Shown here piece after piece: positions 1-40,533 of a stretch of 64,000 nt of DNA. The first letter of the stretch is position 1; every line of letters starts with the position of its first letter. Where the stretch lies: assembly GCA_035084275.1 (NCBI GenBank), contig CM068746.1, forward strand, positions 37,324,001 through 37,388,000, written 5' to 3'. Source of the stretch: Hydrolagus colliei. Taxonomy: Eukaryota. Position numbers and translations under genes: made by a program. The notes under the pieces were generated by a model, which worked only from the letters and a program-made list of their open reading frames with translations, searched no databases and was not told where the DNA came from.

Positions 1-3000
1 AGCTGCTCTGTATTTTCAGCATTGTAATTGCCACATCTGCATTGCTATTGGTAATGATTCTCCATCTAGCTTGGGACATTGATTACAAAAGAACCTATCT
101 CAAGCAGCTTACACATTATCTGACTGGAATAGAAAAACATAAACATGTGCTGATATCTGTCACAGTAAACTCTTATTACATCTGACAAAGGGGAAAAAAG
201 CCTACAAGATGTCAATCAGACTATTTTAGAGCAAATGTTGAGCTGGCTGTATCTAAAATTCTACAAATTTTGCAGTCTTGACAACTGCAAATAAGTCTTT
301 TCTAGCACATCATTACTACCACATGAGGACATAATATACAAATAATATTATGTAGATAGGTTTTAGATATTATAAATTATATAGCAAACATAAAAACGAC
401 CATTCAGGCCACCTAGTCCACATCAGTATTTCTACTTCACAGAAATCTCCACTCTTCCTAACCTCTGTTATTCCCTTCTCTTTCATCCATTGCATCAAGT
501 TCTCTTTAAATGTATGGTTTCAACCACAGTTGAGTTCCACATTGTCACCACCCTCTATGTAAAGAAGTTCCTTCAAAATTTTCTTTTAGATCTGCTGGTA
601 ACTCTTCTCCTCTGGGTATACCACAAATTACTATTTTAATTCTTGATGGCTTTGTCTACCTTTGTTGCTACTTTTAGCCTTGTATATCTGTTCCCCAGAT
701 CTCTTTGCTCCTCTACCTACTTTGTTATTACCATTCAGGGCACAGACAGCTTCTTTATTCCTCCTGCCAATGTGTATCACTTCATATTTCTCAGTAATTG
801 AACATCAATTGCCACCTGTTTGCCCATTCTGTATACCCATTTATGTCTTTTTGTACCTATTTAGCATCCTGTTCATTATCAATGCCCCCCACCCACACTC
901 TTTTCCCTAAGTCCAAATCATTTATCTACACGGTGAACGTTACCAACCCATGTGGAACACCACTTTATACATCTTATACATTAACAAACAGCATTCAAGA
1001 AGACTTGAGCCAATTAGGTGACACTGACCTAATTTTAATATAGCTATATGCAAAGGAATGCATACTTGAAAAATAACTCTTTAAGCAAGTACACAAAATG
1101 AAGACATGTTCAGAGGTGGAGAATGAAAAGGATTTCAGTGCTTATTGATCACTCACTGAATGTGAAGCTGCTGTCAACAGAGCTAACCCAATACAGTACT
1201 TGATTACAAATACAAGCTTGCATCTCGAGGGCAATTGACTACAAGTCGAAAAACTTTATCTAACCTTGCTTAAATGATTTGCGAGAGCAAACTTGGAATA
1301 CTGCGTGCAGTTTTACACAACTTAACCTTCAAAGCATATTAGAGAAACCTGTTCCAGAGAAGAGATACATTTCAGAGAAAAAAGGACAAACCCAGGATTT
1401 GGGGTTTCAAGAGGCGGCTTTCAGATCAGAACATATCATTATGATAAGGGAGCGGGACAGGTAGGCAGTACTCTGTCTTACTAGGGTCCATATGGCCAAA
1501 TCCCTTTACAATTTGTCACTGTGGTAATTGTGGACTGTTTGCCAATTCAATCGTGATTTGGCAACTGGTCCTCAGTATATCTCAAAATAGGAACAGCTTC
1601 CAAAAGTTAAGAACTTTCCACAATTCTGTACACTGTTGAATTTTAAGACGATATTCCAAGGCACTGGACAGTTAAAAATTTGCATCGAAACTGGAGGTAT
1701 TTTTTTTTACTACAGGAGCAAGAGTCAAATCCCACTCTGCTGCTCACTTGCCACACTCTTTGATATTAATCTTTACTAAGCATCTATCTAATTCTCCTGT
1801 AAAACAATACCTGGCCACTTGAGTGAGCCTTTGGAGAGCATTTGGCACCGTGGAGATGTACTGCAGTACAGGTAAATAGGAATCAAATAATAACTTGCTT
1901 GTTATTGTTATTTGATTCCTATTGGCGTTTCAGAGCTCTTAACAGTGGTGAAGCCTGACTCCAAGCTGGGGAATAGCTTCAGCTAGGGAGGCAGAGCAGA
2001 GAGAAAAGTGAAAAAACATTGTGTAGGCGAGGGGGCAGGGTAGAAACAGAACTGAAGGCTCACCTAATTTTCCAAAATAATGAACAGGGAAATCTGACAG
2101 TCATTAATTAATATAGCAGTCAAGGTAATAGAATTGGCTGGTAATATTTTTTTTAGAAACTCAATCTAAACAAGCATTTGTTTCACAGTGAAACATGTCA
2201 AACTACGGCAGAATTAACTATCTCAATACGTGGCAAAAAAAAAAGAAAGTGCAACTGGAACATGAAAGTTTGAATAAGGATAAATTTAATCAAACCTCAA
2301 ATTGAAACTCATGATCCATGTCTAACACAGGCTAACTTTCTAACAGCGCAGTTGGCTGGGTCTAATGTAAAAATGGCTGAGTTAAAGGTGATTGACTGGT
2401 CATCATTAACACTACTTACTGCACTTTGTGCAAATGTACAGTATGCAGGAAGCACCGTTAATGGTACTTGATGCGCATAGCACACAAGAGTAATGCAGGA
2501 TATGAGGTTAGTGGACCAGATGACCTGGAAATTGTCTTTTTTTTAATACTAGAAGCCAGGATTTGCATGGACCCGTAGACAAGTGTGACATCACTATGAT
2601 TGGGTTACCCCAGTCGCTTTTATATCATTCAGCATCTTACAATTCAATCATCATTTTAATTTCAGCTGAGTCTCTCGCAGTTTAAACACAAGCCCAATAA
2701 TCACCCTAGTCTCTCCGCTGTACACCAAGGAGATTTATTCTTGCTCTGCATTCAACCATGCTTTAGCTAACTGAGAAGTACCTAATGTGGACCATTGATT
2801 CTTAAAATAAGAAAATCCTTGGTCTCTCATTAGTAACATATTTCACTTACTGAATACAAAAATCATAATCATAACAAGAACTTTGTTTTGCCAAAATTCT
2901 GCAGTACCAGTTGGATTATGCTTCCCTCCCTCCCTCCCACTGTAAATTAAGGAAGAATCACTAACTGCTGGAATAACCCAGTCGGTTTCCAATAGCAACG

Positions 3001-5354
3001 AGTCTTTATAGTGCAACGCATCGCAACATAAAGCAGACCTGTGGTTACAGGACACAAGTGCACTGTTAATGGCTTTTATTGGAAGAGGGGGAAATATGTT
3101 TGGAACGCTCTCAGTCATTTCTAATTCATTCAATTAAATTTTAGTCAGAGCCCTTAGCGGACTTAAACATTCACTATTACTATGTCTCTGCCAAAGTTTT
3201 TTCCTCCCACCCGTTTGTTCACCTCCGACAAACCCAAAGGCTCCATCCTTGGCCCCCTTCTTTCCCTTATTTACACTCAGGTCCCAGAAAGAGTCATGGA
3301 GTCAATGGCTAGTGCACAATTTTGTTTGGGAGATAGATGGCTCGGAAACCAGGAGAAGTTTCCCTCTTTGCTTTGAGGTGTTTTGACAATATAGACGCTT
3401 ACATTGAGTGCAAGGATTAATATTAAGAAAATTCCATAACTATGATTCCTTCACATTGAAACTCTGATGAATACTAGGATTTGAATTTTTACACTAGAAA
3501 AGTGACAGATTATACTTCACATGGCTATTTTATTCCAATTGACAGTGACTAGCGTAGTTATTCAGAGCTGGTTATTAGGTTGTCAGTCACGGAATCATTC
3601 AAAGATACTGCAGATCTTCCGACACATTGGAAAAGAGAGTACATTTTAAAGAATGCTCAAATGCAAACAGTCTTAAGTAGAAAACTCAAGGAACCTAAAA
3701 TTACCAATGAAGACAACTGTAATTTTTCCGTCAGTGTTTTTGTAGACCAACAAACAGGAACCCTCACAAGGGCAGTAATTTCTGTTCATTGAATTGTGGA
3801 CAATTCAGAATTTTGTGAATTGCTGACATTAATGTATTACCAACCGTAAAGACATTTCACTTTAAAAAAAATTGAAGCCATATTCTGTGACACTTTAGTA
3901 TTGTCAGCAATGGTCATAAAGAGAGCTTGATATGGCAAGTATGTGGCTGATGTCTGACAAGTGAAGATAAACACAGATGAAGGGAACTAAAAATAGAAGG
4001 CACATATAAGCTATGGATGGGATAGAAGATGAAAGAGATCAAGGGGAAGCTGAAAGAGATCAAGGAGTACGAGTTAACTCATCGCACAGTTCAAAAAGGT
4101 GAAGCAGTAATAAACAAAGCAACCAGTATGTTAGACTATATTGCTGAATCAGATTTCTAGAGGCCATATACAATCTGTAGAGTAATCCTCTGCTCGGTCC
4201 GCATCTGAAATATTGGACACATTTCTGGAGACCAAACATAAGGGGGCTGCCTAAGTCCAAGAAGCAGAGCAGAAGTTAACAAAGTGGAATGAACAGTGTT
4301 TAGAGGAATTAATTATGAGCAGAGAATACAACAGCAACAACTTACACTTGTATAGCACCCTCCACTCAGGGTAGGGTCTCAGAGTGCTTGATTAGACAGG
4401 CTAGGGCTCTTCAGACTTGAAAGGCGATGTTGCAGAGGTGACTCATCTCAAAGATGTCTTATTCAGGTGCACAAGATTTTGAACGGATTCAACAAGTAAA
4501 TAATAGTCATAATAATCCTTGCATTTAATAGTGACTTTCACGTTGAGTGGAGATCTCAAAACAGGATTTACTGTAAAGTGTAGTGACTGTGTTTTGTGTA
4601 ATAATAGTGCTTGCATTTGATATAACGCTTTTCATATCTTATCGACGTCTCAAAGTGCTTCACAGAATATACTGTAAAATGAATTGATTGTATATTTGTG
4701 GGCAAAACGCGGCTGGCAATTGCGCATAGCAGTATCCCAGAAAGTGGATTGAAATAAACAATTTTTTTTAATTGTGTTTTTTTGGGACAAATTATTATTA
4801 GGCGTGTGTAAGTAAGGATTCGTTTAAAATACAATACCTTGAAGCTATAATGTGTGGACCTCATTTCTGAACCTCACTGAAATCTAGTAATGCACATGCA
4901 GTCAAGAGACAGAGCCTGAAGTTGTATAGTGTTGGTGCAAAGACATCCTGCAAAAATCTACCAATACTTAATTGGGAAGAGTAACCACAGACCAAAGAAG
5001 TCTGAACAAAATAAGCTCTCAAAAGGTGATCTGCTACCAGCAGCCATCATCTTAAAATATTATCCAGGAATGCTAATGTAACAGCATTTCCTTTGACTTA
5101 ATAGTTATCTGGATCCACCAGTTTCACTGAAACTCTGCAGAAAGAACGCTGGAAGGCAGTGAGCAGAAAAATATGATTTCCACACGATATTAAAGAATAA
5201 TGCATAAGTGTAATTTGCCATTCTGTTGCTAGAGGCAAGCTGTGCGTATGAACAGCAAGACAAATGCTGTCAAGTGAAAGCACAAACAGTGGAACAACAC
5301 TCTTACTTGTGATGCTCTGTTGTTCCACACACGTGGAACCAACATTGATTCTTT

Positions 5355-8696: not shown

Positions 8697-9029
8697 TATA
8701 TACATATATATATATATATATAAAAATAGAGAGAGAAAGAAAGATACAGACACACACTTCTTTAAACTGAAAGAAAGGAAAAGAGGTGACTGCAGTCTTG
8801 TGGAAAAGGTACTTCCTACCTTCAGGAATACAACAGCTAACTTGCATGCTAGTTTTCAAACAATAAAAATAAGATATCTGTTGAGACACTTTATGGAACA
8901 AAAGTATAAAGTATTCACATGGAAATAAATAGTTCTTACTCCCCAATGATCCCTTCAAAAGAATGAGCATTCTTGTAGAGGAAGATAATTGGGCAGAAAT
9001 ATTAAACCTAAATTGTATGCACCAGAACA

Positions 9030-9366
9030 TAATAATAATCCTTGCATTTGACATAGCGTTTTCCACATCTTATCAACATCCCAAAGCGCTTCACAGAATA
9101 TACTGTAAAGTGAATTGACTGTATATATTTGTGGGTGAATCGCGGCAGCCAATTGCGCACAGCAGTGTCCCACAAACAGTGGTGGATTGAAATGACCCAT
9201 GTTATTATTGTGGGATTTTTTGGAAGGATTATTATTAAGCGTGTGGAGTAAAGAAACTTGCCCAGGGTTTTGCCCTGACCTGCCTGGATTCGAACACAGA
9301 TCTCCCCAGCTTGGTCTCCCTAGCTTGCAAGACAAGTGCTCTAACCAGAGCCACAGGAGCTCCACA
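9030..9366 (-). mobile_element. tRNA-derived Deu-type SINE, full length
   Basis: Head with pol III A box (tggctctgg) and B box (gttcgaatc), Deu-like core gctgtgcgcaattggctgccgcg, tail tgcaaggattattatt. Confidence 0.85.
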
Positions 9367-9594
9367 TGCATCTCCTGGGCAGATTTAAGACAAAACTCCT
9401 TGTGTTTCTTAAGCCTTATTGATTCAGTGCAATCCATCACTCTATTGTCACTGTAAAGCCCAGTAAATCACATTGTCAGAACCTTTCCAGTGTAACATCC
9501 GTAGCATGCATCACGGCATTCCATCTAGTAAACCTACACGGTTTTATCAAAACAAACAATTAAGGGCAAGATTAAGAGAAATAAATCCATTCAC

Positions 9595-9707
9595 CTTCAT
9601 GAAAAACCTTTTATCCGTTCTGGCAGGATTGTAGGAGGAAAGGTAAGCAGCAAACAGCAGAAATTTGGAGTAATATGGAAGTTCAACGTGTGCATGAGCA
9701 GAAAGTC
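9595..9707 (-). CDS. ORC5: ORC5 coding exon 10 ([37 protein letters not shown]); gene continues but later exons were not found in the window
   Basis: 113 nt, caccag/gtgaat boundaries; highly conserved ORC5 C-terminal-domain motif. Confidence 0.97.
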
Positions 9708-12076: not shown

Positions 12077-12167
12077 CTGGAGGTTTCTCTTAGATAAACA
12101 GTTTGCATTGCTTTTTTCAGATGGGGTTCAATGTTTTTCCAGAGGTGATGAGTATCCTCTTCTTTCA
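12077..12167 (-). CDS. ORC5: ORC5 coding exon 8 ([29 protein letters not shown])
   Basis: 91 nt, ctcaag/gtaact boundaries. Confidence 0.96.
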
Positions 12168-12366
12168 CTTGAGGAAAAAACATTTGCTTTTAAAAACATC
12201 ACTGCTGATTATGATAGATCCCCACATTTGCATTTTCTATAACTACATGACTTTTCATCAGGATAATCCTTCTTAACAGGCATGCCATGTTGGTGGATAC
12301 TCTAATATCCACCGGTGCAAAGATATTTTAAAACAAAGAACAGATTCCTTCCCCCTTCAGACTTAC

Positions 12367-15620: not shown

Positions 15621-15674
15621 TTTTTTAAACAAACACCATCCTGCTTCCAGTGACACTCTGTTGCCAGGAATAAG

Positions 15675-15985
15675 AATAATAATCCTTGCATTTGATATAG
15701 CACATTTCACATTTTCTGGACGACTCAAAGTGCTTCACAGAATATACTGTAAAGTGAATTGACTATATATTTGGGGTCGAAACGCAGCAGCCAATTGTGC
15801 AGTGTCCACAAACAGTCGTGAATTGAAATGACCAATTTTATTATTGTGCTTTTTTTTGGAGGGATTATTATTAGGTGTGTGGAGTAAGGAAACTTGCCCA
15901 AGGTTTCGCCCGGACCTGCCTGATTCGAACACAGGTTTCAAGCTTGTAAGGCGAGTGCTCTAACCACTGAGATACAGGACTCCAC
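15675..15985 (-). mobile_element. tRNA-derived Deu-type SINE, full length
   Basis: Same family consensus. Confidence 0.85.
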
Positions 15986-16678
15986 AACAGAATTCATACT
16001 GCAACATACTAGTGACATTCTCACACCACAGCAAGGAATAAATCACAAAACTTTGGAACCAAAACAACTAATGGGAAATGAGCTTTGTGCAAATCAGCAC
16101 CATACATTGTTTTTAAAGTTAAGAGATTTTACTGTGAAAAACAAAGAAAGCTTGTAGAGCTTTTGGACCTTATAATATCAAAATTCCCCTACTTAATGTA
16201 GGCTAATCAATACATATCTATGGAATTAACTGAATGCAGTTATCACTAATGTAAATATCTATCTTCAAACCATATTTTTGAACTGCTTCGCTAGACATCT
16301 AATTACTTTGCTACATTACAAACACAAATTAGTACACTTAGCCAGAAGGTTTCACTCTAAACAAGGTTTGGCAGTGTTAATTGCACAAAATAGAAAGCCG
16401 AGCAATCTCAAGGAAATCGTTATTCACTATAAATGAAGCCCTAAATGGATTGTAAGAGTAACTAAGCTTAGTTTTTCGCGCTCAAACAAATGAAGACTTT
16501 GATATTCTAATAACAACATATTTCAATCACAAATTAGTCACTTTGGTGTTGCAGACAGCAAACAGCTGTTAATTCATAACACAAGAAAGCTAGAGAGAAT
16601 ACTGCTTCCTCTCCCCCCACACCCACCCACCTACAAATTAAATAACTTAATTCCCCTCCCCCAATTAAATAAACTTAC

Positions 16679-16809
16679 CAGATGTCGGAGTTCTTTCAGA
16701 TCTCTGCAGACCGTATAAAACACGCCGAGAAGCATGTTAATGTAGGAACTGTAAAAATCAGCACAGAACTCTTTAGGATGGTCATGTGTAAGAATTTTCA
16801 GAAGGTCAG
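16679..16809 (-). CDS. ORC5: ORC5 coding exon 6 ([43 protein letters not shown])
   Basis: 131 nt, cttcag/gtaagt boundaries; frame consistent with the previous exon. Confidence 0.97.
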
Positions 16810-19800
16810 CTGAAGTTGAGAAAACAAGTTGGTTTAAGTAACTAATTTCTCAGTAGATGCTTCTATTATTTAATGAATGTACTTTAACAATAACAGTATA
16901 CAGTATAAGCCTTCAAATCATGCATAATACCAAACCTCAAAATATAGAGCCCAGTTAATTATTTTAAAACCTTGCTGGACAGTACTGTTAAGAGGAACAA
17001 GATGATCATTTAAAGAGAGATAAATCTTATGCATGGAGGAGAGAAGCTTATGTAGGAAGTAACTCCATAATTAACATGCTTATAGAAATTTGGTGTACCT
17101 TTAAAAAGAAATCCTCGATTGTCTTAGATCTCCAGGACCCACCTTCTGCCCTGCTTGCCTTCTCTTACAATGTCATTGATGGGCAGAATCAGGGAATCAG
17201 ATCAGTCTGGGAGTTCAACATGGAGTTTACCCCCAAGTTCATGAAAGCTTTTCCATTTGTGGAGTACGGCATGCATATGTGTACACAATATTCTATAATT
17301 TTGTATAACAAGAGGATACGCTGAAAAGAAAGCACTTCCTCTCCTATATTTACAAAGCTCTTTGAGATACTCTCCCAATGTGAAAGGCACTGTGAAAGAG
17401 CAAACTATTGCTAATAATGTCACACATTGGTCACAGCCCCCTGAGGAACTCTAGAAGTGAATAGTCCTGTGTGATTCAACACACTTAGGAAGCGTCTGCC
17501 AGGCATCCAACATATTCAAAGGCATCCTTAGAATATTCAATTAATTTATGAGGCATGATCCAGCTTCATAAACCCATGTTTGGTGTGAAATTACCTCTAA
17601 TCTTATTAAACACTCTTCAATTATTTCCTCTATAATTGATTCCGATATTTCGGCTTTTAGAAATGTCAAGCTTTCAGGCAAAGTACAGGACTCCCAAGAT
17701 CATATTTCACACCCATATTAATTAATTGGCAATTGCTTGATTTTACCCCTATATTTGAGGAGTTGAGAAAACATTCACCCTTCACTTCAGTCCTCACTTT
17801 TTCTTCAATACTTTCTATCTACTTTCTGTCACTCTCCCAACTCTCTCCCTCCCCACCCTGCCCCTCCCACTTGCTCGGGTCCCGACCCAACTGTTCAGCG
17901 CCTTGGGACGCCCTCCTGATGTGAAAGGCGCTCTATAAATGTAATTTTGTTGTTGTATCTAATCTATTTGTCATTGAATATTCAATACCTCAACTTCTTA
18001 AAGACAATTTCATTAGCAAAGCACATTACCTTCACAAACTTGGATGTACAGTACTTTCTTTGCTCCAATTACATAAAGGAACCACCCACAAAATGATCTC
18101 AAATTTGTACCATAGCTTATTCTAGATTTGTAGCATTCAAAGTTAAAGTACATCTAAAAAGGAAGTCTCTTTCCTGAATTATTTTCCAGATCATTCTTGC
18201 ACCAGTACAGTATTTAAATTTGGTTGACATATTTTCAATCTCCCTCCTTCCTCATTTTCTTAGCACTTTTGAAGCATTTCGGTCATCAGACATAAAATTG
18301 AGAATTCTCACTAATAATTGTTATTAAATCCAATTAAATTTCTCCTAAGGAATTGTTATTAAATCCAGTTGATTAACCTCTTTAACTTCAGAGTTTTGTC
18401 CCTGTTCTGTTTAGTGTAAACAGGCAAAACCACACAACAAACCGGTTATTGGCCATATTACTAATGATTCCTCAGTAGAAATCTGTATGATCTGTCTAAG
18501 AACTGGCACAAAGCAAATAATTTCTCAACACTCCCACCGATGTCCTATGGTAGTTTCTCAGAGGACAATGGTATGCAGTAGGTAATGTCAGGCAAACAGG
18601 GTTCTCCGTAACATTTAAACCAAATTAAAAGGCAGTCAAATTTCAATAATTGTGGGAAATATGATGAGGTGCTTGTACAAAAGTGTTAACAACTTCATTG
18701 TCCTATTCATGTTTTTGAAGAACATCCTCCTCCCTCCCATCTCTTCAGCAGAAACAATCTACGTATTTCAAAGGTACTGATTTCATAGTGATATACAGAA
18801 ATTGATTACATGTGGCATTTATATTTATTGCCCAAATGTTTAATGGAAACAATTACTGGAGAATAAAAGCATATGGATCAAATTTAAAGGAAAAATAATA
18901 CATGTATGTTTTATTCTAATAATATATATATTCTATTACCCTGAGATAACCCCAAATATAAAAGTGGTAATGCAATACTATAATAGCAATAATCCATGCA
19001 TTTGATATAGCATCTTATCACATCTACAAAACCTTTGCCAAAGGCCTTTGCAGAATATACTGTAAAGTGAATTGACTTCATATTTTGTGGGTGAAACAAA
19101 ATAAACTGCAACGAATAAGTGGTAAATTCAGTTGTTTCATTCAAAGGCAAGCAGTCATCTAGGCCTGTGGAAGGCCATCTTACTCATGTATTGTTCATGT
19201 GTTTCCAAATTGTCATACCAAGCTGATTTTGTACAGCAATTTCAGTGAAGTTGCTAAGCAACAAGATCTTTATGCCCTCCTCTCTTATCGCAATGCTCTA
19301 TTTGATTGGCATTCAGAAATTTATCATACAATACTGCACAGCCTAAAACATCTCCAATGTTACAGATCATATCTTAAACAAACTACAGGTAGCATTTTTA
19401 ACCAAAGGTATTAAATTATTTAGGGTTTCACACTTCTTTTAAGTCTTTTCTTTAGGTTCCCCTCACTGCTGTTCCATGGATCATTAGAATATACCTGCTC
19501 CAAGATCTCTGATAGATATAACCAACCACAAGAAGGTACACAAGAGTAATGTTTATTTTCTCCCAATTGGAAAACTGCAACACTCCAATTACTAGCTGAA
19601 TCCATAAACTCACAATAGCATCAAAAACTTTAAATTTCTTCAAAATATTTGAAGAAATAAATTTGAAATAAATGTAATAAATAACTATTAATCATTTAAT
19701 AAATATAAATTCAATATTGAATTTCAAAGCTTTTTTAACAAAAATTGCAGTGATTAAAAAAAAAAGCTTTAAAGTGTACAAATTATATGAGCCAGGCAAA

Positions 19801-19860
19801 AAAAAATTTCACTAATTGGCACCATTTATTGAAGTAGAAAAACTGTAGGAATAGTTTTAC

Positions 19861-19972
19861 CTTTGTTGTAGTCAGGAAAATACAGAATTAAAGGCTCAAA
19901 ACAACCAGTACTTGGGCGAAACTTTTCCCAAACAATTTCACTGAGGAAAATAACAGTGACATTTGCTTCAGC
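19861..19972 (-). CDS. ORC5: ORC5 coding exon 5 ([37 protein letters not shown])
   Basis: 112 nt, tttcag/gtaaaa boundaries, ends in phase 1. Confidence 0.97.
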
Positions 19973-21107
19973 CTGAAAAAGACACAAAAACCGTGTTGAT
20001 GTAATTATTGATACTCACATGCTACATTTGAATGAAATAAAAACAAATTGAAACTCTTTATACAGTTATCACAATCACAGTGAATGGAAGCAGAACCACA
20101 TCTCAAGTGCAAATCGACTTTCATGACAGCTACTGCTGCGTCTTTAAACTACTTTCATCTTAATTTAAATAAATTGTGTCCAAACCTAGTCAGTTAACCT
20201 GTAAGTGATTTAATCTAACCCTATTTTATGATGTCATCCAATCTAGTTCCCTTAGTAACACTTAATTTTACTACCACCACTTTACAATTATGGTACAGAA
20301 CACATTTTCCATCAAGAGGACATCTCAAAATTGACTCTGGAAGCCTAAGAGGAGGATGGCAGTGGGGGAGGATATGTTAGGCTCAAAACAGAAAGCAAAA
20401 TTATACCAGATATTCAAAAGAACCACTAGGTCACCACCGGTTCTGATTTATTCCCACTGCTGGTATAAATAAATCAGCTTTTAACTGAACAAATCCTACT
20501 GTGGAACAACTAGAGCAATCCAATTTTCAAACCACTGTATATGAAATGGAGACTTTTTAATGGTGAAATCACTTTAACAAGCACTTCCGGTATTATATGC
20601 CCCAATGCTCTTCAGTGCTTTTGTGGAATGGGCAGATGTGAGCAGCGTACTTACCTAATACGAATTAGGTAAATAGATTTAGACGATCTTTGTGCAGCTT
20701 AAGCCCCATTGCTGTAAATGGTTAAACCTTATACTGTACTGTATATATTTTTTAAAAACATTTCTGCTGGAAACACATTAAAGATGCATGTACAAAATGC
20801 AATTTTTTGTTTGCAGGGTGAATGACACATGCAGAAACCTAATGCCATGCTTAAGATTATCCAAACCACAGCAGTTTCACATATGTATGTCACCTACAAA
20901 TGGAGATTTCCATGTCTGGAAAGGAATGCAAACTCCATTCCTGGAGGGACACACCCAGTTTACCTAATTCTGGAGAATATTATTCGCAGGTTAGCGAGAG
21001 CCCAAGAGTGTGTGTTGGGGTACTGATGGAGTTTAATCAACTAAAAGTACGTAGCCTGCCACTGACAACAGTGACTGTCAAAATTGCCACCAGGCCCACC
21101 ACCCCAT

Positions 21108-21250
21108 TAGTCCTTACGAAAGGTTGTAGACCCGAAACATTGACTCTTTTTTCTTTCTCCATGAATGCTGTTTGACCTGCTGAGTTTCCCCAGCAACTTT
21201 TTGTTTTTGTTTCAGATTCCCAGCATCTGTTGTATTTTGTGTTTTGATCC
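21108..21250 (+). mobile_element. Penelope-like element terminal remnant with degenerate hammerhead core
   Basis: AGTC-CTTACGA-A-AGGTT gta GACCC-GAAACATT-GACT followed by atgaatgctg...gacctgctgagttt...ccagcaac, paralogous to 21367-21472. Confidence 0.6.
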
Positions 21251-21366
21251 CCATTAGGGCTTTGGCTTGCAGGATTAACAAGATTGAATGGGGAAAAAAG
21301 GCCTGCTTAAAGTGGCTGGTCTGTCCCTGCTTACAAGCCAATTATCAGTGGTCACTTAGATTACTA

Positions 21367-21407
21367 TGAGTCCTGATGAAGGGTCATGGACCCGAAACAT
21401 TGACTCA
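21367..21407 (+). ncRNA. Minimal type-I hammerhead ribozyme motif (Penelope-like element derived)
   Basis: TGAGTC-CTGATGA-A-GGGTC atg GACCC-GAAA-CATT-GACTCA: 6-bp stem I, CUGAUGA and GAAA cores, 5-bp stem II, minimal stem III. Confidence 0.7.
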
Positions 21408-21472
21408 CTTTCCTTTCGCCATGAATGCTGCCTGACCTGCTGAGTTTTCCCAGCAACTTCTGTTTTTGTTTT
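21367..21472 (+). mobile_element. Penelope-like element terminal remnant, copy 2
   Basis: Same tail as 21108-21250; begins exactly at the hammerhead stem I. Confidence 0.6.
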
Positions 21473-23738
21473 GTACTGTACTAGAAGCCTACCGGCTCCA
21501 GAACCAGACTTGACTACTCAGAAAAACTGAAGAATAATGCTTGAAGGGATTATATAGAGGAATTTGAAGGCAAGGATAAGATCTGAAAATTGATCAGCTA
21601 GAATTGTGGGAGCCATTAGAACTTGGCAAAATCATGTGTGCAACCCAATATCTCAGTATCTTTTGAGGGATATCCTTGTGTACAATACAACATCTAGGTA
21701 AATAAAAAATGATTTGACAGACTGGAAAAATAAATAGGTAGTATTTTTATAAATTAATAAACTATCCAAATTTACAGTGTACTACTGTCCAAGACTTCAC
21801 ACACTACACCTAGAAGTTCACCATTCACCAACACAGTTTTGTTGGGTCTCCCACTCTCTCATTTGCCAATTTCCTCTGCAGCCCACAGAAAGATCCAAAC
21901 CTGCAGGGTTGAAAAACTAATTTATCACTTTCTAGGTCAGCTGGGGCCAATCAAACCCCATAATGTCTTCCATGACAAAATTTTATTCCTATAAACTCTA
22001 ATCAGGCTGTCACAGCTATTCGGCAATCTGGGAGATTTCAGAACAAGGTTCAAGTTCATGCATCGATAGTGAAATGAAAGAACCGTTGGACAATTTGACT
22101 TTTGATTTATGTAGCATCCAATTTGAAAAACAGAGATGAAAAATAATTTGAAAATCTTCATATCTTCATTTCCCCCAAGGCTATTTTGGGGAATAAAGAA
22201 TCATAAATTCAAAATTAATGGTGAGGGAAGACAAACAGGAATGCATAAAATCCTGTTTAAAAACAAAAGTCCAAATTAACAATGTACAAAGCATTAACAA
22301 GAAAAATCTAAGAAATGCCTGTACTATAATATATTTTATTATCACAAGCTATTAACTTGTTCCTGCACCAGCCCACACAATTGAAAGAGGAAATCTAGCA
22401 GCTGATGATGAGAAATGATGAGCACAGGAATGTTCCTCACTAGCAGTGCTTACGAATATTACCGTCGAAGTGTTTCATTATATGCAAGCGTAGCAAACTG
22501 TTTAGCTTTCTTGTGCAGTGATTAAAAGAGGAACATGTTGCTAATTTGGTTCAGACTGTTTTGCCTGTTTATTGTACGACTGCATTTTAGGTGTTCAGCA
22601 TTCTACTCGCACAATAAACTCAGGAACATAACTAAGACCCTCGGTTTGAACCCTTCATTCCAAAGGACGTCATCTCAAGCAACACAACCCGTTCCCCGTA
22701 CCGATGTGGAAGTCAACATAGACTATGCAAGTTATTCCGGTAACTGTTCATGTGTCTGGACAACTTTCCCCTCATGAGCTCAGGACATTATGGCCAGTTT
22801 AAGCAACCCAACTGCTTCTTGCTCTGAGCTTAGCTCACTCAACGCAGTCAGAGTATCAAATATCTAACCTACTGATCTGTGTACTTTAGTGTTAGATCTT
22901 GACCCACAAACAAACCCTAAACGTTTCTTCTACTTCTCCAGAGAGAAATGAAAAAAGCCTAGTCAACAAAACACTACCTCTGTAAGCAATTTAAATATTT
23001 AGGCTTTACATCAAAATGTCACTGCCAGGCAATTTTTGAACATCTGCTTAAATGGAGCTCAAGAAAAATACATTCATGGCTAAGTACTTCAAACATTTAC
23101 CACTAACATTTTCACGGGAGCAAGTTAAAGTGATAACTTATTGCCAAACCACAGACAGAATATTAAACAGAAGATCTAATCCATTGGCAGTCAGTACTCC
23201 TCAAAACATCTAAAATAAGAGTGTAAATTGTAAGTCGGATTATCTTTTTAAAAAACACCTTCAAAATCACTACTTATAGCCATGCAATTGGGTAATGCTA
23301 GCTTTAAGGAAATTAGGGAGGAGAGGTAAGCGGAGGCAGAGCCAGGGGTCCACAGAACTGCCGGGCATTACTTATGACAAACCAGCCAGCGTGGCTCAAT
23401 AAAAGGACTTGGAGAGGGAGACCACGGAAGAGGAGCAGGGAGTTTTCCTATAAAACACAGCAAGCCAAAACCCTAATGGGTAGGGTGGTCCTAGTTGGAC
23501 AAATCTAGTATGGATCCACTTAAGACACAGTGACAAGCATGTATCAGACATCCAGCTGAATTTTTATTTTGGAAAAGTAAACATCACAGCTCTTTAATTC
23601 TCTCCGTCAGAATTCCTCCACTTTATGAAATTAATACTTAAACGTGGACAGTCATGGCATTTTTAACCACATTATCTTGTTTACATTAAGAGTATTTTAG
23701 GTAATTATAGAGACTTTATAGAGAAGACAGTCACATAC

Positions 23739-23813
23739 CAGTTCTTGCAACCTCAGGAACCCTGGCAGCAGGTTTGCATCCATTTCCCGTAGCTTTTCAG
23801 TTTTATCCAACAC
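23739..23813 (-). CDS. ORC5: ORC5 coding exon 4 ([25 protein letters not shown])
   Basis: 75 nt, gaag/gtatgt boundaries; close match to ORC5 [25 protein letters not shown]. Confidence 0.97.
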
Positions 23814-24294
23814 CTTCAATAAAATACAAGGTAAGGTATTAAAGGATCCTCATTTTATTTCCACCTAGTGACTTTCTCTTAAAATGTTCCTTGCTCACAT
23901 GACGTATCTTAAATATAGACATGTATGCTCTCGAAAAAGCAACCTCCCTTCTCCTGGCCCCCGGAATAGTTGAATAGCATAGGAGTGAATAGATCTAATC
24001 ATATTTTCTGAGGAATCCTTCAGTATTAGTTTTGCACAATTGTTCCTTTGTTTTTGAAATCTTTGCTAACAAATGTAGTAGAAAGCTACACCACTTTGAA
24101 ATAATTTCCATTTTATTAATATTACTTGCCATGTATATTTTCAGGAATAGGCATTTTGTTTTTTTTAAAAAAAGAGTACCAGCATAGCTCATATTGCACA
24201 CCAGCGATAAATGCAAATGGTGAACAATGATATTAATATTGATATAAATGTTAGAAACCCGCAACCAAGTGTGAATTCATAACAATTTGCTTAC

Positions 24295-24498
24295 GATGTA
24301 AATGGTTTGGTTGTGCAAATTGCGTTCATGAACCAGCTGATTAAACAGTCGAACAAAGTCGTTGAGTGTGTCACATCGCAAAAATGAAGAGTATTCATTC
24401 TCAGGGGTAAGGCAATGTCCTTGTAGTTGGTTAAGGATTTGTTCGAAAAGCATCCTCGATGAAAAGCACTCCACACAATTAACAATCACATGGGGAAG
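24295..24498 (-). CDS. ORC5: ORC5 coding exon 3 (LPHVIVNCVECF...NQTIYI)
   Basis: 204 nt, tttcag/gtaagc boundaries; matches ORC5 LPHVFVNCVECF...DFVRLF. Confidence 0.97.
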
Positions 24499-26949
24499 CT
24501 GAAAAGAAAAAAAATCTTTATGAACCATAAAAGAACATTCTGTACCAATCATTTGTTCTAAATTATCACCTAATTTCTAAAATTGTGCTAGAACTGATTG
24601 TGCAGTCAGGATCCCTCACCCAGTTTTAATGTCAGCCATTGTCTTTCAGAAACACACACAATGCTTCCAGGAATAGCCTCAAAACCATCATCTTAAAGTG
24701 TAACATTAGAAGGCATATGTAAAATTTATTTTCCACAAAGAACTGTGGGATTTCCTTATTCAAAAATTAAAAGTAGTTTTGGAACATCGGTAACAGGAGG
24801 TGGCAGATTTCAATAATATATTTGCAGGGAAAGAATACTGTGGACAATTATTCAGAAGCCTGATTTGTACTTTTCTTTCTATATCAATTTTAAATTGGGG
24901 CTCCCCACAAAAAATACGTTTTGTCTTTCTCTGCATGTTCACATTGGCTTATGTAAAGAATCCCAAATAGGGAGGCTATTTATGTTATTTAAAGAGCTGA
25001 TCAAAAGATCAGTGTGACACACATGCAGTCTTCACACTACGTTGGTGAGAATCCCAATGCAAAATTTCAGAGATCTGCTGCCTCCGTAAAACTCATATAA
25101 ATCTTATCTTTACACATCACCTGGGTCCCATTAAGTTTCCCATCAAACCGACTTAGATTTATTTGGACAAGTCGTATTAATCACCAGAGTCCCCGAGTGT
25201 TTAGCACCTTTGGGTGTCCTCCCGACTTGAAAGGCACTTTACAAATGGAATCTTGTTGTTGTAGTCTTGACCCATCACCGCATGCGCACTTACCGGCTGC
25301 ATTGAATTACATATGTGCAATGCAGATTGATTACATCAGAAGTCATATTAAATGTTATGATCCCAACCGATACGACTTTATGTGAGTTTCACTGTATACT
25401 ACCCATCTGGCGGTACTTATTGAATAATAGTAACAGTAGAATCAGTCAGAGACATAGTCACATTCAAATTGATTTCTTCTCAAGATATATATCAGCCTAT
25501 AAAGCCTCCACTCTGGTACTTCAATCACCTGTACTATATCTCCAGGGTAATGTATGGACCAGACAAGCATAATGAGAACCGTGAGAATGACAGCTTTCTT
25601 TAATTAACTACGAGCCATATTAAATCAGGCAGACTTTCTCACACACATCTTGAATGAATCTTTGCTTCTCTTTCTTTTCTCTGTCTGTAATTCAGCAGAA
25701 AATTTAAACACACAATAGTAAACAAAATGCTATCCAAATATTTCATGCATGATACTAACTTTGCTACGTTTCTCCATCTCCTCACCCAACTGCATTTTCC
25801 ACCCATTTCCAATAAACATACCACATAGTAATAATAATCCTGGCAGTTTGATACAGTGCTTTATCGAGTTGTTCAGACAGCTCAAAGTGCTTCGCAGAAT
25901 ATATTGTAAAGTGGATTGACTGGGTATTTTGTGGCCAAAACGCAGCAGCCAATTGCGCACAGCAGTGTCCCATGGATTGAGTTACCATTTTTTTTACCCC
26001 GGAAACCGATCTGCCAATCAATTAACAACCGGGTTCCTACTTAATGCTAGGTGTGTAATATGAAAGGTGCTACACAAGTGTAATGTTATTGTTGTTGTTA
26101 CAATTGGAAAGAGAGCAAAAGCTCAAAAGGAATTTCAGCCTATTTCTTGTACAAACGTATCTTCAGTCATTGAAACTAGTTTTGTGCATTCTTTCCTGCA
26201 CCTAAAGTCTAATTTCTGATTTCCCTCATTTTTTGGTGCATCATTATCTTCAATTTTTCATGGTGCATTTACACATATATGTCTTATTCTCGGTTATAAT
26301 GATTACAGTGTGGAAGATGGTGGATCTTTAATATGTGATTTTCATTGTTAACAATGAAAAATTGTATGTAGGCATTAACCCTTGGTTGCACAGCAATGAA
26401 AGTGATGACCTTTGCATAACAAAGACAAATGGACAGCCAGGAGAGCTTACAAAGGCAGTAATTCATCTAAAGATTTAAATTGTGGCACACAATACAGTAC
26501 TTAAGCGATTCACAACCATCCCTAAAGCCCCTTGTTGAGATTTCATTTCAAGCACTCAGGGAAGAGAAATTTCACCTGGGTCATTGACACTTTTAAAAAC
26601 TTTAGAAAAACATTACCAAAGTCTGACAGGAAGTCACAGGTTTAGAGTTCTGAAGCACACCTTTAAGACAATTGCCGGGATGTACTAAAAGTAATTATAT
26701 AAAGCATAATCAACAGCTTTAATGCTTATTGGCAAAAAATAAGCACTTAATATTGTTGAAAATAATCAACCGACCTTAATAATGTTCCAATGAAACCATC
26801 ACAGTCACAAGCACAGGGACAGCAATTTGATTCATAAAGTAATGTAACTCTCACTCTCCCGTTGATTCTGCCAGCACAGTATTTCAAAGCTCATGAGCTT
26901 CATGTCAAAGGCAGTCAACGTGACAAATTGATTAAAACCTTTCATTTAC

Positions 26950-27042
26950 CTCACATGTTTTGAGCAATGTTTGCATCACATAGGTTTTCCCTGTGGCCGT
27001 ATGTCCATAAACAAAAACGGAAGGGTAACTGTAATGATGAGG
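26950..27042 (-). CDS. ORC5: ORC5 coding exon 2, Walker A ([31 protein letters not shown])
   Basis: 93 nt, ttccag acceptor and gtaaat donor, intact GxxxxGKT motif. Confidence 0.97.
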
Positions 27043-27117
27043 CTGGAAGAAAAGCAAAACTTTTAAAGTCACCAAAATGATAGTTTTTTCTTTTATTAGC
27101 TACACAAGTAGATACAC

Positions 27118-28003: not shown

Positions 28004-29729
28004 CTTTAAATACTGTTTGCAGAGAAATTCTCCTACAGAAACAAGGTGAAACAAAGAACCAATTCAACCTACAAATGTTCAAGTTGTGAATCAACACACT
28101 CCGAAAACATTTAGATTGATGAGATTTAAACAATCCCTTCCATGTGCCAAAACAATTTATTCCAAATAATTTCGAACGCTGAAAGTTTTACCAGTTAGTG
28201 GCCCAGGGCCTGGCAATTTTGAACCACTAAGAATCAATCAAAGGCATTCAATTCTGTCAATCAGAAGATTGATTAAAATGCTGATGTTGTAAAAAGAACC
28301 TCTCATCAGAAGATTGACAGAACATAGGAAATGTTGCATAATGTGGTACTACGGTCCCTCCTTTAAATATTTATGCTGGTTGACTCCTAAACATCTAAAC
28401 TGGAGTTTAAGTGCAATTAACAAGCCTTCATTTTAAAGAAGAAAATAGCATACAATTGCTCTCCTTATGCTTCCTCTGAGGGGTCATATGTGGCAGTCTA
28501 AGGGCAGCACACTTGGTAACAGAGACAAGAGTCCCAGGTGCAAAGGAACAGGACATACATTACAGTAAAACCTTGATAATCCGACATACTGAATGCCTGC
28601 AACTCTCTAAAACGGGCAAGATTACAAAATACAAACAGCATTAATTTTTTCCCGATGTCTGGAAAATCCCCCTTTTTTAAATTAAAAAGCATATTTTTTT
28701 TACCCACACACAATAACAGCGGGCATTCATAGAGCGCCTTTCACGTCAGGAGGACATCCCAAGGCGCTGGACACTGAAAGGTTTGCAACTGAGCTGGGGG
28801 TTGGCATGAATTGTTTTTGGTCAGGCAGGAGACGCACCCTGCTTACCTAATTCCTGAAAGTTTTAGGCGCAGGTTGCCAAGAGCCAAGGCTTAGGGAACC
28901 CAAGAGCGTGCGCTGGGGGGCAACTGCTGGAGTCCAACCAGCTAAAGCTGCATAGCTTGCCATTGATATCGTTGTCTGGCAAGGTTTCCCGCTGCTTGTC
29001 CAGTTAGAACCACCTCACCAGTTAGGGATTTGGCTTCCATGGTTAACAGGAGCTGAGTGGGAGGATAACAACAATAACTTGCACATATATAGCGCCCTCC
29101 ACGCCTGGTACCGTCTCAAGAGCACTTAACAGTGGAGGAGCCTGACTCCAAGCTGGGTGGGCGGTGGGGGGGGAGGTGACCATAAGCACAGTCAAAGAGG
29201 AACAAAATGCAAGGATAATAATAATCCTTGTATTTGATATAGCACCTTATCACGTCTTTGAGACGTCTCAAAAGCCCTTCACAGGATATCCTGTAAAGTG
29301 GAGTGACTGTGTGTTTTGTGGGCGAAACGCAGTGACCAATTCCACGCGGCAGAATCGCACAGACAGCCGTGGACTGAATTGACCGAGTTATTATTATTGT
29401 TGTTGTTGTTGTTAGCATTATTATTATTATTATTATTATTATTTTGGAGGGATTATTACCTCCAGGAACAGCGATTCCCTGCCCCCCCCCCCCCACCGAG
29501 TGAATGGTCTGACCTTCCAGGTCCGGTCGATGAGCCAGGCAGTGCAGGACAGAGCTGGGACTGGGCAGAGGCTGGGGTAGGGGTAGGGGCTGGGGCAGGG
29601 TCTTGAAGCGCTCTGAGACGCGGTCCGGCGTGGAGGGCACTATATAAATGAGAGTTGTCGTTGTTGTCTGGGCTACGGGCTGGGCAGAGTCTGGGCTGGG
29701 GTAGGGACTGCAGTAGGGGCTAGGGCAGC

Positions 29730-31470: not shown

Positions 31471-31696
31471 GCACATTTTACATCAGATCAATTAGTATCT
31501 AAAAGTCAAAATGCAGTAGTTCAATAATAGGCCAATACTGTAATTAAATTAATACATAGTTTAATTCAAATAGTTTACTTTAAGAACACATTTCAGGTCT
31601 GCCCCATTAACAAAACTGATAATGCATCAGATTGAAACATTATCCTAAGTTTCTCATTCCAACATTGGTATACTGATTGATAATGCTTTGCATTTT

Positions 31697-32015
31697 GTGG
31701 AGCACCTGTAGCTCAGTGGTTAAAGCACTCGCCTTACAACCTGTGTTCGAATCCAGGCAGGTCAGGGCGAAACCATGGGCAAGTTTCCTTTCTCCACATG
31801 CCGAATAATAATCCCTCCCCAAACAAACACAATAATAAATATTGGTCATTTCAATCCACAACTGTTTGTGGGACACTGCTGTGCGCAATTCATTGCCGCG
31901 TTTCTCCCACAAATATACAGTCAATTCACTTGCCAGTATTTTCTGTGAAGCGCTTTGGGACGTTGATAAGATGTGAAAAGCGCTATATCAAATGCAAGGA
32001 TTATCATTATTATTA
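31697..32015 (+). mobile_element. tRNA-derived Deu-type SINE, full length
   Basis: gtagctcagtggtt...gttcgaatcc...gctgtgcgcaatt...tgcaaggattatc. Confidence 0.85.
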
Positions 32016-34569
32016 TGTTGTGCTTGTGTTACATTTCCAAAGTTTCAGAGATTTCACCACCAACAACTGAAACTCTGAAGAAAGTTGTTGTGTGACCTTG
32101 ACGTCTTCCCAATGTGAAACGTGATAATCAAACGTAATTTTGTTGTTGTATTTTGTAGCATTGCAAAATATTTTGTGGAGCGCAGTTCTTACAGCAGATT
32201 AGCTCGCTGGTGAATGTGATGCAAACCCTGCCATTCCTCCTCCTTAGTGTGCTGTGATATCACTATTGAGACCTTGACAGACACCCAGGCAACATCTGAA
32301 GGGAAATGTTGGTGTTCTTTCACAGGTATCTGCCTCACAGAGCTTTCTGAGGATCTAGCCGACACAAGTAGTCTAACATGCTCTCACAATTCAGAAGATA
32401 GTAATCCTTAAATTTGATACAGTGCTTTATCAAGTCAAAATGTCACAGCACAGTTGTTTGTAAAATGCAGTGTAGTGATTGTATATTTATAGGTGAACGC
32501 AGCAGCCAGTTTGAGAAGAGCAATGTTTGACAAACAACCATAGAGTGCGTTTTTGTACGGATGCAAAATTTGCAACATTTGCCAACCTGCGTGGATTGTA
32601 ATAACCTTTAAGGAACAGTAAAGCAATGCAAAATTCCTGCTTTACTCCGCAGCTCTACAAAGAATCCGAACATCAAAAATTTCCCCCAAAACTAATATCT
32701 TGTGATGTATTTTTAATACAATCTCACCCCTGGCAACAATAGCAAAACTGCTGAATTCTGTTGTTGAATTGCGCTGCAAAAAAAGCATAGTGCTGCGTTT
32801 TGAGTCACTCTCGGGATCTTGTAAAACTGAGTGTGACAAGGTGTGAAATACTGTACTAATATAATATTTGATTTTTTCCAAACACAATGACATGTCTCAC
32901 ACTCCCCGGTCTCATGCAATCATCATTGTGTCGCTAGCTTTTCCAGTTGGTTATATTTCTGAGAGTAAAATTTCATCATGTGCTAATACCGTTATTTCAA
33001 AAACTCCCCACAATATGCTGTGCGTAAATGATTGCAAATATATGCAAACCACTTGTAATCATGCATCAACAAAGGCTGGAAAGAGAACGGCAGAACAATC
33101 AAGAATGCATTCTCAGTGGGAAGTCGGGGGAAATGCAAATCTACAGAATTTAACAGAATCCGAGCAACAATGGAAGATGGAATCAGAAATAGCTCGTCAC
33201 ACAGCTAGGGAGTCAAGCAAAGGATCCAGTGCAGAAAAATTAAATGAAGGCTCACGACAGTTATATGTGAAATTAGTCACTGTTTCCAGTATGAATACAC
33301 TTTATTCTTATGGTGCGTGTGGTGTGGGCCCTGTATCTGGAGGAAATAGAAGAATTTAATTATTAAATCCATTTGTACTTCACGGGACAAAAATGGGAGA
33401 ATAATTTGCGATGTCTTGATGAAAGACGAAAAGTACAATCCCTGGATGAATTTCGTGTTGCACATCGGATGTCCGTTCTCAGACAGAATTCAGGAGCGAT
33501 GAGATACAAGCTGGGAAGGGGTTGTAGGAAATGAGGAACGCCCTGCCACTGAAAGCAAGATTTTTGGGATAAGAGAAAAGGCAAGAGAAAATGAGTAAAA
33601 GGATGCAATATGGTTTTAAAAAAATGGAATAAGCCCAATGAACGATAAACCACTTCTTTTCGCCCACAAAATACACAGCTGATCCCCTTTACTATATATA
33701 ATGTGAAGTGCTCTGAGACATCTCAATGACATGATAAGGTGATATGCACCTAACGAAAGGATTGTTATTATTTATAGTATTACTTTTGAATCATAGAATC
33801 CCACACTGAAACAGACCATTCGTTGGGTTACTGGTCTACATAGAGTATGTTTCTTCATATGATCCACCTGTCCCACTCTCTTGTTTGCTCCCTCTATCCT
33901 CTAGTATATTGGCAACACAACAACAACAACAACAAAATTACAGTTGTACAGCGCCTTTCACGTCAGGAGGACGTCCCAAGGTGCTGGACAGTCATTGTTT
34001 CAGACCCGAGCTGGGGACAGGGAGGATGGAGGGAAAGGGGAAATGGCAATCCCCATTACAGCAGGATCATCTGGATCAAATATTTCAGACATATTAAAAA
34101 GGAGCATTAAAAACTGCCCGACTTCAAGTTGGCAAGACTGGCAAAGAGGGAGGGCAGTTGGGAAAGAGGTCAAAACTGTGGCAGAACAAAAAATAATAAG
34201 AGAAAGATACCAAAGGCCAGTGTAGTTCTGAATAAGCAAATGCTGAGATAGAGAATCAATTACTCAGACTATGAGTATATTAAATAATAATAATAATCCT
34301 TGCATTTGATATAGCGCTTTTCACAGCTTCTAGACATCTTAAAGCGCTTCACAGAATATACTGTAAAGTGAATTGACTGTACATTTGTGGGCGAAACGCG
34401 GCAGCCAATTGCGCACAGCAGAGTCCCACAAACAGTCGTGGATTGAAAATATTAAACACGATACAGATTAGATTTGATGCAGACTTGGTTAGGCACCTCA
34501 TTTTCCTTTCCACTATAAATCATAAGTAAATCATTTTCTGCATGTATGTATTTCCGTGTGCATGCATCC

Positions 34570-40249: not shown

Positions 40250-40533
40250 GTGTGAGACCTGTGTTTGAATCCAGGCAGATTAGGGCGAAACCTTGGGCAA
40301 GTTTCCTTACTCCACACACACTAATAATAATCCGTCCCCCCAAAAAAACCCACAATAATAAAAAATGGTCATTTTCAATCCATGATTGTTGTGGGAGACT
40401 GCCGTGCGCAATTGGCTGCCACGTTTCACCCACAAATAAACAGTCAATTCACTCTACAGTATATTCTGTGAAGCGCTTTGGGACGTTTAGAAGACGTGAA
40501 AAGCGCTATATCAAATGCAAGGATTATTATTAT
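40250..40533 (+). mobile_element. tRNA/Deu SINE (5'-truncated)
   Basis: Family consensus. Confidence 0.85.

What the first reader, a model, noticed from the sequence alone, without database searches (positions are those of the whole stretch)
21108..21472. Pair of minimal hammerhead-ribozyme motifs ~260 bp apart in an ORC5 intron
Seen in sequence: 21367-21407 folds as a type-I hammerhead, with stem I TGAGTC/GACTCA, CUGAUGA core, stem II GGGTC/GACCC, GAAA, and a tiny stem III AACATT that looks like a CpG-decayed AACGTT palindrome. A decayed twin (CTTACGA core) sits at 21109-21145. Both are followed by the same ~70-nt tail and both inserts begin right at stem I. Established knowledge: Penelope-like elements carry such minimal hammerheads, which are thought to act as dimers, and tandem hammerheads define retrozyme-type RNAs. 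Inference: these are remnants of a ribozyme-bounded non-autonomous retroelement family. They lie antisense to ORC5, so they would not cut the ORC5 pre-mRNA, which may be why they are tolerated.
Basis: partly seen in the sequence, partly recalled or inferred. Interest (0 to 1): 0.7.

Follow-up and report, generated by a model that had tools for sequence, protein, structure and literature searches.

The report
Two decayed Penelope transposon stubs
The two ribozyme-like motifs in this intron are real but mostly ordinary: they are two separately inserted, mutated end-pieces of a common Penelope-type jumping gene, not a ribozyme-bounded circular-RNA element, and they are predicted to be unable to cut RNA.

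Summary
The motifs are real and lie antisense in an ORC5 intron, but they do not bound a retrozyme. Each is a stub of the terminal repeat (pLTR) of an RT + GIY-YIG Penelope-like element with roughly 2,000-3,000 copies in this genome. Copy 1 has its own 9-bp target duplication, splits an older repeat that supplies most of the spacer, and belongs to another subfamily than copy 2. Both lost the AACGTT palindrome needed for dimer activity; copy 1 also lost G5. Family stem I is 4 bp; the 6-bp stem is partly flank. More interesting is the family pattern: 48 of 92 copies start within 7 nt at stem I (TATA-like/Inr site), 1 at the cut site; 3' ends fall at two sites (about +70, +105); 48 of 53 head-to-head pairs combine one of each. 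This suggests uncut RNA copied from two start sites to its 5' end, one per DNA strand (inferred). The one-sided tail is published, and this scan met such stubs many times in other genomes, once with the RNA-start reading. Interest low.

The parts
21109..21246 (+). Copy 1: pLTR stub of a Penelope-like element, -33 to about +105 from the predicted cut site; includes the optional ~35-nt tail; minor subfamily B
   Evidence: carries all five linked subfamily markers (G-14A, A5T, C6T, T46C, C58T) as in L119, L163, L169
21109..21145 (+). Decayed minimal hammerhead of copy 1 (core G5 changed to T, G10.1 to A, stem III palindrome lost); predicted cut 21141/21142
   Evidence: stem I pairing probability 0.0, stem II about 0.1 in the two-copy RNA
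21102..21110 (+). Left copy of the 9-bp target-site duplication of copy 1 (last two bases shared with the element's first two)
21249..21257 (+). Right copy of the 9-bp target-site duplication of copy 1
21249..21330 (+). Spacer: part of an unrelated, older dispersed repeat into which copy 1 inserted
   Evidence: 40 matches of 40 scored; best cover query 1-82; 0 of 11 other copies carry a hammerhead; several continue into sequence like the left flank of copy 1
21369..21471 (+). Copy 2: pLTR stub, -33 to about +70, no tail; main subfamily A; no clear target duplication
21367..21407 (+). Minimal type I hammerhead of copy 2: core intact, extra A between A9 and G10.1, stem III palindrome lost by CpG decay; predicted cut 21401/21402
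   Evidence: self-duplex of stem III: family -4.1, window +2.8 kcal/mol
23739..23813 (-). ORC5 exon upstream of the host intron (approximate limits)
   Evidence: tblastn of ORC5 homologues, E 3e-6 to 7e-6
19850..19972 (-). ORC5 exon downstream of the host intron (approximate limits)
   Evidence: human ORC5 residues 147-186, E 2e-17

Best explanation
[quoted passage not shown] Shown: identity with the element's terminal repeat; the RT/GIY-YIG link; the target duplication and subfamily of copy 1; the family-wide fixed 5' start at stem I; the two 3' ends; the long+short rule in inverted pairs. Inferred mechanism: the element's RNA starts at about -34/-33 (TATA-like box 29 nt upstream, initiator-like CCAGTTC), so the hammerhead is the first 37 nt of the transcript. 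The element's protein nicks target DNA and starts reverse transcription inside the RNA at about +70 or +105. It copies through the uncut ribozyme and runs off the RNA's 5' end, leaving a 105- or 140-bp stub. Copy 2 is a +70 product and copy 1 a +105 product. When both DNA strands of the staggered break are primed, one at each site, a head-to-head pair results. After insertion both window copies decayed neutrally, mostly at CpG.
For: Family size: 2,973 first-look candidates, top hits 93-97%; 493 exact matches to a 37-mer, control 0. Link to ORF: 40 scored candidates join GIY-YIG end to hammerhead; Pfam GIY-YIG E 1.6e-4 to 3.6e-4 in 3 of 8 peptides; RVT_1 E 1e-4 in a 517-aa open frame with YIDD; L165 shows pLTR followed by the ORF. 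Independence: 9-bp duplication; spacer is another repeat; subfamily markers in copy 1 only. 5' ends: 48 of 92 at -35..-29, stop rate 0.095 per nt against 0.002-0.021 elsewhere; 1 of 92 at the cut site, and that one looks like an internal deletion. TATA-like at -62 and initiator-like A at -33; C at -34 in 20 of 48 but C at -35 in only 7 of 48; no shared upstream exon. 3' ends bimodal. Loose ends at the matching places (724-729, 822, 859-861 of L165) in public contigs and reads. Inverted pairs long+short in 48 of 53, 32 of 33 in the unbiased set; target duplication of 8+ nt for 30 of 92 against 1.4% in shuffled pairs. Literature: internal RT start at two sites that define the tail, both strands extended, uncut RNA as main substrate (PMC11167929).
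Against: Pfam scores are below the curated cut-offs. Copy 2 has no clear target duplication. The two copies share two uncommon changes (T-30C, G22A; 6 of 145 and 3 of 159 in other copies, the second biased low by the anchor), which could hint at contact between them. Empty-site scores are modest: 5 of 11 above the control 95th percentile by 3 or more points, 2 above the control maximum. No pile-up of RNA starts at -33 was seen, in a library not suited to show it. The cap-G test is weak: G precedes 6 of 10 copies starting at -33 but only 2 of 10 at -34 and 2 of 10 at -32. None of the 5 long copies whose 5' end lies in or at the pLTR starts at -33: 4 stop short of it and L165 passes it. The same site also looks like a splice acceptor.
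Confidence: 0.88

Rival explanations
1. Retrozyme-like unit: the two hammerheads bound a 260-nt non-autonomous element that is cut out as a monomer, circularised and reinserted.
For: Same orientation and 260-nt spacing, within the 150-450 bp range of animal retrozymes (PMC7229834 passages); animal retrozymes are proposed to derive from PLE pLTRs (bioRxiv 10.64898/2026.07.22.740005); two shared uncommon changes.
Against: The spacer is an unrelated repeat, without a hammerhead in 11 of 11 other copies; copy 1 has its own duplication; different subfamilies; 4 of 92 copies have any other same-strand piece within 850 nt and none is a second full unit; copies do not begin at the cut site; stem III cannot form between the two copies.
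Confidence: 0.04
2. Same element, but the fixed 5' boundary comes from splicing: the AG at -33/-32 is a 3' splice site, as in Drosophila virilis Penelope, where the intron end maps to the 5' end of helix I, and the stubs are copies of spliced RNA.
For: It is the only AG between -196 and -22, with a pyrimidine tract and a branch-like CTAAC at -73; PMC4209133 and PMC2377424 describe the intron at the equivalent place.
Against: Spliced templates should add a common first exon: upstream flanks of the 48 copies match neither the element nor each other, apart from inverted arms and one segmental duplicate, and the upstream pLTR has no GTRAG/GTAA/GTGA donor; in 6 of 7 non-inverted copies with a duplication it lies within 4 nt of the start; no spliced joint to -31 in the reads.
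Confidence: 0.15
3. Same element, but the boundary is an RT stall or protein block at the base of stem I, and inverted pairs come from self-priming on an antisense template.
For: The boundary coincides with the helix end; self-priming on antisense RNA was proposed for head-to-head pLTRs (PMC3846280); several junctions are short fold-backs.
Against: RT would be expected to stall on entering a helix, not after passing it (established knowledge, recalled); self-priming does not by itself predict one long and one short arm in 48 of 53 pairs.
Confidence: 0.2
4. One local event: copy 2 or copy 1 arose from the other by duplication or gene conversion.
For: Both carry T-30C and G22A; close same-strand pairs are uncommon.
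Against: Flanks are not homologous; three subfamily markers that lie between the two shared changes differ; T-30C also occurs in other subfamily B-like copies such as L176 and L187.
Confidence: 0.07

Closest known systems
Minimal type I hammerheads of metazoan PLE pLTRs (Cervera & De la Pena 2014, PMC4209133)
   Same: [quoted passage not shown]
   Different: Helix II is 5 bp with a 3-nt loop; the window copies have lost the palindrome; the paper attributes solo motifs to truncated PLEs and, in the parts read, gives no fixed 5' boundary
EN+ Penelope-like elements with the CX2-5CxxC linker (Neptune/Nematis type; PMC8557442)
   Same: RT followed by C-terminal GIY-YIG, C-x4-C-x2-C linker, pLTR with hammerhead, inverted 5' copies, 30-40-bp tail at one end, 8-16-bp target duplications
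   Different: No RT tree was built, so Neptune versus Nematis is not settled; no intact full-length copy with both complete pLTRs was recovered
PAc Poseidon element of Anolis (Frangieh et al. 2024, PMC11167929)
   Same: Two RT start sites downstream of the hammerhead that define the tail; uncut RNA is copied; no ends at the cut site
   Different: In PAc the ORF starts at stem II and the start sites lie inside the ORF; here the likely ATG lies about 140 nt after the cut site, so both sites are in the 5' UTR. The paper saw no strand difference in start site in vitro, while genomic pairs here are long+short in 48 of 53
Animal non-LTR retrozymes (PMC7229834; bioRxiv 10.64898/2026.07.22.740005)
   Same: Type I hammerhead, spacing in the same size range, proposed PLE origin
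   Different: Retrozymes are head-to-tail tandem repeats with a complete hammerhead in each unit; here the spacer is foreign, there is no tandem family and neither ribozyme is complete

Membership tests
PLE minimal type I hammerhead | CUGANGA and GAAA core around helix II, helix I open | tested here: met
   Copy 2 and family majority; copy 1 fails at G5
PLE minimal type I hammerhead | Extra nucleotide between 9 and 10.1; G10.1-C11.1 pair | tested here: met
   A at 21380; pair -21/-9 is GC in 124 and GT in 22 of 159 copies
PLE minimal type I hammerhead | Palindromic positions 15.2-16.2 allowing a dimer helix III | tested here: not met
   Met in the family majority (self-duplex -4.1 kcal/mol) but not in either window copy (+2.8)
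PLE minimal type I hammerhead | Covariation in stems | tested here: inconclusive
   Within this one family changes are one-sided, mostly CpG decay; U-G to C-G at -30/0 in 12 of 159, inflated by a selected search; no cross-species alignment made
PLE minimal type I hammerhead | Self-cleavage (weak, as dimer or protein-assisted) | not testable with these tools
   Needs in vitro assay
EN+ Penelope-like element | Single ORF with RT then GIY-YIG endonuclease | tested here: met
   In other copies of the family: RVT_1 E 1e-4, GIY-YIG E about 2e-4, both under Pfam cut-off; same frame order in L162, L168, L170. The window stubs hold no ORF
EN+ Penelope-like element | pLTR at both ends, hammerhead within it | tested here: met
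   3' pLTR in L032-L061; pLTR before the ORF in L165, partly in L158-L160
EN+ Penelope-like element | Inverted 5' copy and optional 30-40-bp tail at one end; target duplication | tested here: met
   34 of 92 with inverted partner, 30 of 92 with duplication; long+short 48 of 53
Neptune/Nematis clades | CX2-5CxxC zinc-finger-like linker between RT and EN | tested here: met
   C-x4-C-x2-C printed for 5 of the 30 loci by a strict pattern, visible in further copies
Neptune/Nematis clades | Placement in RT phylogeny | not tested
   No reference PLE set fetched
Non-LTR retrozyme | Head-to-tail tandem repeats of one unit | tested here: not met
Non-LTR retrozyme | Complete hammerhead in two consecutive units | tested here: not met
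   Copy 1 core broken; both lack the palindrome
Non-LTR retrozyme | Abundant linear and circular unit-length RNA | not tested
   No reads were laid on the window locus itself

The most novel reading that the evidence does not exclude
The thousands of solo minimal hammerheads in such genomes are not random truncations but strong-stop-like products: the Penelope transcript begins with the hammerhead, the RT starts at two fixed sites 35 nt apart in the 5' UTR and runs off the capped end, and a dimeric RT-endonuclease uses one site for each strand of the target break, which gives the near-strict long+short rule of head-to-head pairs. The genome would then record in vivo how the two start sites found in vitro are divided between the strands.
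Probability: 0.45. Interest if true: 0.5.

Novelty: new member of a known kind. Interest (0 to 1): 0.27.

Why it matters
The locus itself matters little: two dead transposon stubs in an intron. The family statistics are a usable test bed for the still unresolved Penelope insertion mechanism. They predict a transcription start at the first base of the ribozyme, an uncut template, and coupled use of two RT start sites on the two DNA strands. Each can be checked with 5' RNA mapping and the published in vitro PLE assay, and would explain why solo minimal hammerheads far outnumber full elements (2,973 against 143 first-look candidates).

Tried and rejected
Rfam scan of 19-24 kb: no hammerhead family. 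PDB search with an RT fragment: nothing useful. Genome searches with ORC5_lid and AAA_16 did not find the ORC5 5' exons; they were found by motif scan, PDB and tblastn. Search for other hammerhead families with N7 = A/G: 64 matches, control 2; the 30 read are variants of the same family, none in tandem. Sequencing runs: no RNA holder listed for the family. Reads from one sample of another organism label lie on both orientations and mostly run on into unlike sequence; no pile-up of starts or ends; this library cannot show a transcription start or strand bias. Cap-G test inconclusive. Strand bias in introns not tested (no annotation). Circular junction reads at the window locus not examined. Rejected: retrozyme unit, tandem duplication, 6-bp stem I as a family feature, shared first exon. 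Rows to note: the 92 anchors count both arms of three inverted pairs (L090, L109, L128) and one segmental duplicate (L078/L079); upstream extents beyond about -105 are underestimates; among the 53 pairs L076 is probably not a true pair and L097 is doubtful; the anchor favours the main subfamily and chromosome C1 (first 90 of 493 listed places fetched).

Full report
Observation. Copy 2 (21367-21407) has a complete minimal type I core, an extra A before stem II and a decayed stem III. It folds better than 199 of 200 shuffles, but the predicted fold pairs the core with the CATT before the cut site; copy 1 folds no better than chance. The copies form a 107-nt direct repeat 260 nt apart and have no other relative in the window. 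Rfam does not model them. ORC5 lies on the minus strand: exons at about 26908-27060, 24292-24500, 23739-23813, 19850-19972, 16670-16816, 12079-12171 and 9586-9700. The copies are therefore antisense in the 3.8-kb intron between the exons matching human residues about 123-147 and 148-186.

What family it is. A genome search gave 2,973 first-look candidates with top hits at 93-97%. An exact 37-mer occurs 493 times, control 0, and 8 of 30 loci chosen by the endonuclease end hold that 37-mer, so the family has roughly 2,000-3,000 copies (my estimate). Upstream of some copies the sequence continues through a pyrimidine-rich UTR into a GIY-YIG domain (Pfam E about 2e-4, just under cut-off). Before that lie a C-x4-C-x2-C linker and an RT (517-aa open frame, RVT_1 E 1e-4). 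L165 shows the same repeat in front of the ORF. This is the pLTR of an endonuclease-positive Penelope-like element of the Neptune/Nematis type as defined in PMC8557442 (passages). The hammerhead matches the minimal PLE type of PMC4209133 (parts 1-2 of 4 read). Family stem I is AGTT/GACT; the two outer pairs seen in copy 2 come from flanking DNA. Stem changes within the family are one-sided, mostly CpG decay.

Why the pair is not a retrozyme. Copy 1 is flanked by a 9-bp duplication (21102-21110, 21249-21257). The spacer belongs mostly to another dispersed repeat; 0 of 11 other copies of it carry a hammerhead, and several continue into sequence like the left flank of copy 1 (best score 42, control maximum 34). 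Copy 1 carries five linked markers of a minor subfamily and copy 2 none. Of 92 copies sampled through the tail 37-mer, 4 have another same-strand piece within 850 nt and none has a second full unit. Retrozymes are tandem repeats with complete ribozymes (PMC7229834 passages; bioRxiv 10.64898/2026.07.22.740005, parts 1-2 of 5). With 2,000-3,000 copies per Gb, about one same-strand pair within 300 bp is expected by chance (my arithmetic). Against full independence: both copies share T-30C and G22A, each seen in only a few percent of other copies, and copy 2 has no clear duplication. Both have lost the palindrome, so a dimer helix III is not predicted (+2.8 against -4.1 kcal/mol), and copy 1's stems do not form in the two-copy RNA.

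Family pattern. Of 92 copies chosen without regard to their 5' end, 48 start at -35..-29 from the cut site, 24 extend further upstream, 16 start between -28 and -1, 1 at the cut site and 3 beyond. The stop rate is 0.095 per nt at the hot spot and 0.002-0.021 elsewhere. In a second set chosen by the core alone, 19 of 30 lack the upstream pLTR. 3' ends cluster near +70 and +105. Public contigs and reads laid on L165 show loose ends at the same places (the contig set may be the assembly's own sample, and the two RNA runs are one sample of another organism label). 34 of 92 copies have a head-to-head partner, and duplications of 8+ nt were found for 30 of 92 against 1.4% in shuffled pairs. In 48 of 53 pairs one arm is long and the other short (32 of 33 in the unbiased set; p 3.5e-10 against 0.5; exceptions L012, L025, L076, L165, L185). 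Copy 1 is a long and copy 2 a short stub.

Mechanism. PMC11167929 (parts 1-2 of 4 and passages) shows in vitro that a PLE protein nicks and extends both strands, starts RT at two internal sites that define the tail, copies uncut RNA, and assists ribozyme cleavage. The two 3' ends here fit those sites (inference). For the 5' boundary I favour the RNA's start. There is one TATA-like run at -62 and an initiator-like A at -33, C is enriched at -34 (20 of 48) but not at -35 (7 of 48), and no common upstream exon or donor site exists. A TATA/Inr pair in a pLTR is described for Adineta (PMC3846280 passages). The rival is a splice acceptor: it is the only AG in about 170 nt, and the D. virilis intron ends at helix I (PMC2377424 passages). 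An RT stall is a further rival. RNA evidence for a start at -33 was not obtained and the cap-G test is weak. The long+short rule suggests that the two strands of one break are primed one at each site, by a dimer on one RNA with strand displacement or on two RNAs in unequal positions (inference).

Novelty. Minimal hammerheads in PLE ends, solo copies, inverted partners and a tail 'at one end' are published. I did not find the fixed 5' boundary or a count of the long+short rule in the passages read or in six literature searches; supplements and subscription papers were not seen and may cover them. This scan has met such stubs often: 131 notes in at least 25 genomes hold the same key words, one already reads the shared ends as the RNA start, and one concerns another stub in this genome. 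These are unchecked AI notes; my reading was formed before I saw them (notes). Verdict: real, new member of a known kind, low interest for the locus, moderate for the family statistics.

Noticed in passing
window 21050-21330; also 23460-23500 (-) and about 29010-29061 (+): An older dispersed repeat family, unclassified, hosts copy 1; 40 genomic matches of 40 scored.
   Followed up: partly
window 21112 and 21372; 21164 and 21424: Both copies share two uncommon substitutions (T-30C, G22A) although they differ at subfamily markers lying between them; unexplained.
   Followed up: partly
family pLTR, -196 to -32 (e.g. L033 about 1830-2000): AG-free pyrimidine tract with branch-like motif ending in CAG at the hammerhead: a strong 3' splice-site look-alike that longer sense copies could lend to host genes.
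   Followed up: partly
window 21374-21401: The catalytic core can pair with the bases just before the cut site, both in copy 2 and, by inspection, in the family majority, giving a closed monomer hairpin.
   Followed up: partly
window 32075 (+) and 52566 (-): Two further CTGANGA...GAAACGT matches without an obvious stem II; possibly chance or other PLE families.
   Followed up: no
window, e.g. 9029-9304, 15669-15987, 31695-32016, 40253-40533, 50012-50321: A very abundant ~300-bp SINE-like repeat with dozens of copies in the window; several hammerhead stubs elsewhere are inserted into it.
   Followed up: no
window 42503-43024 (+): Open frame resembling the first coding exon of an LHFPL3/4-type tetraspan gene, head-to-head with ORC5 (name recalled).
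   Followed up: no
L078/L079, L057/L058, L200/L201: Copies with identical flanks at distant places: segmental duplications, not new insertions.
   Followed up: no
L173, oriented 2032-3291: A 420-aa frame of another RT-type element appears inserted in the middle of a family ORF (type recalled as LINE-like, untested).
   Followed up: no
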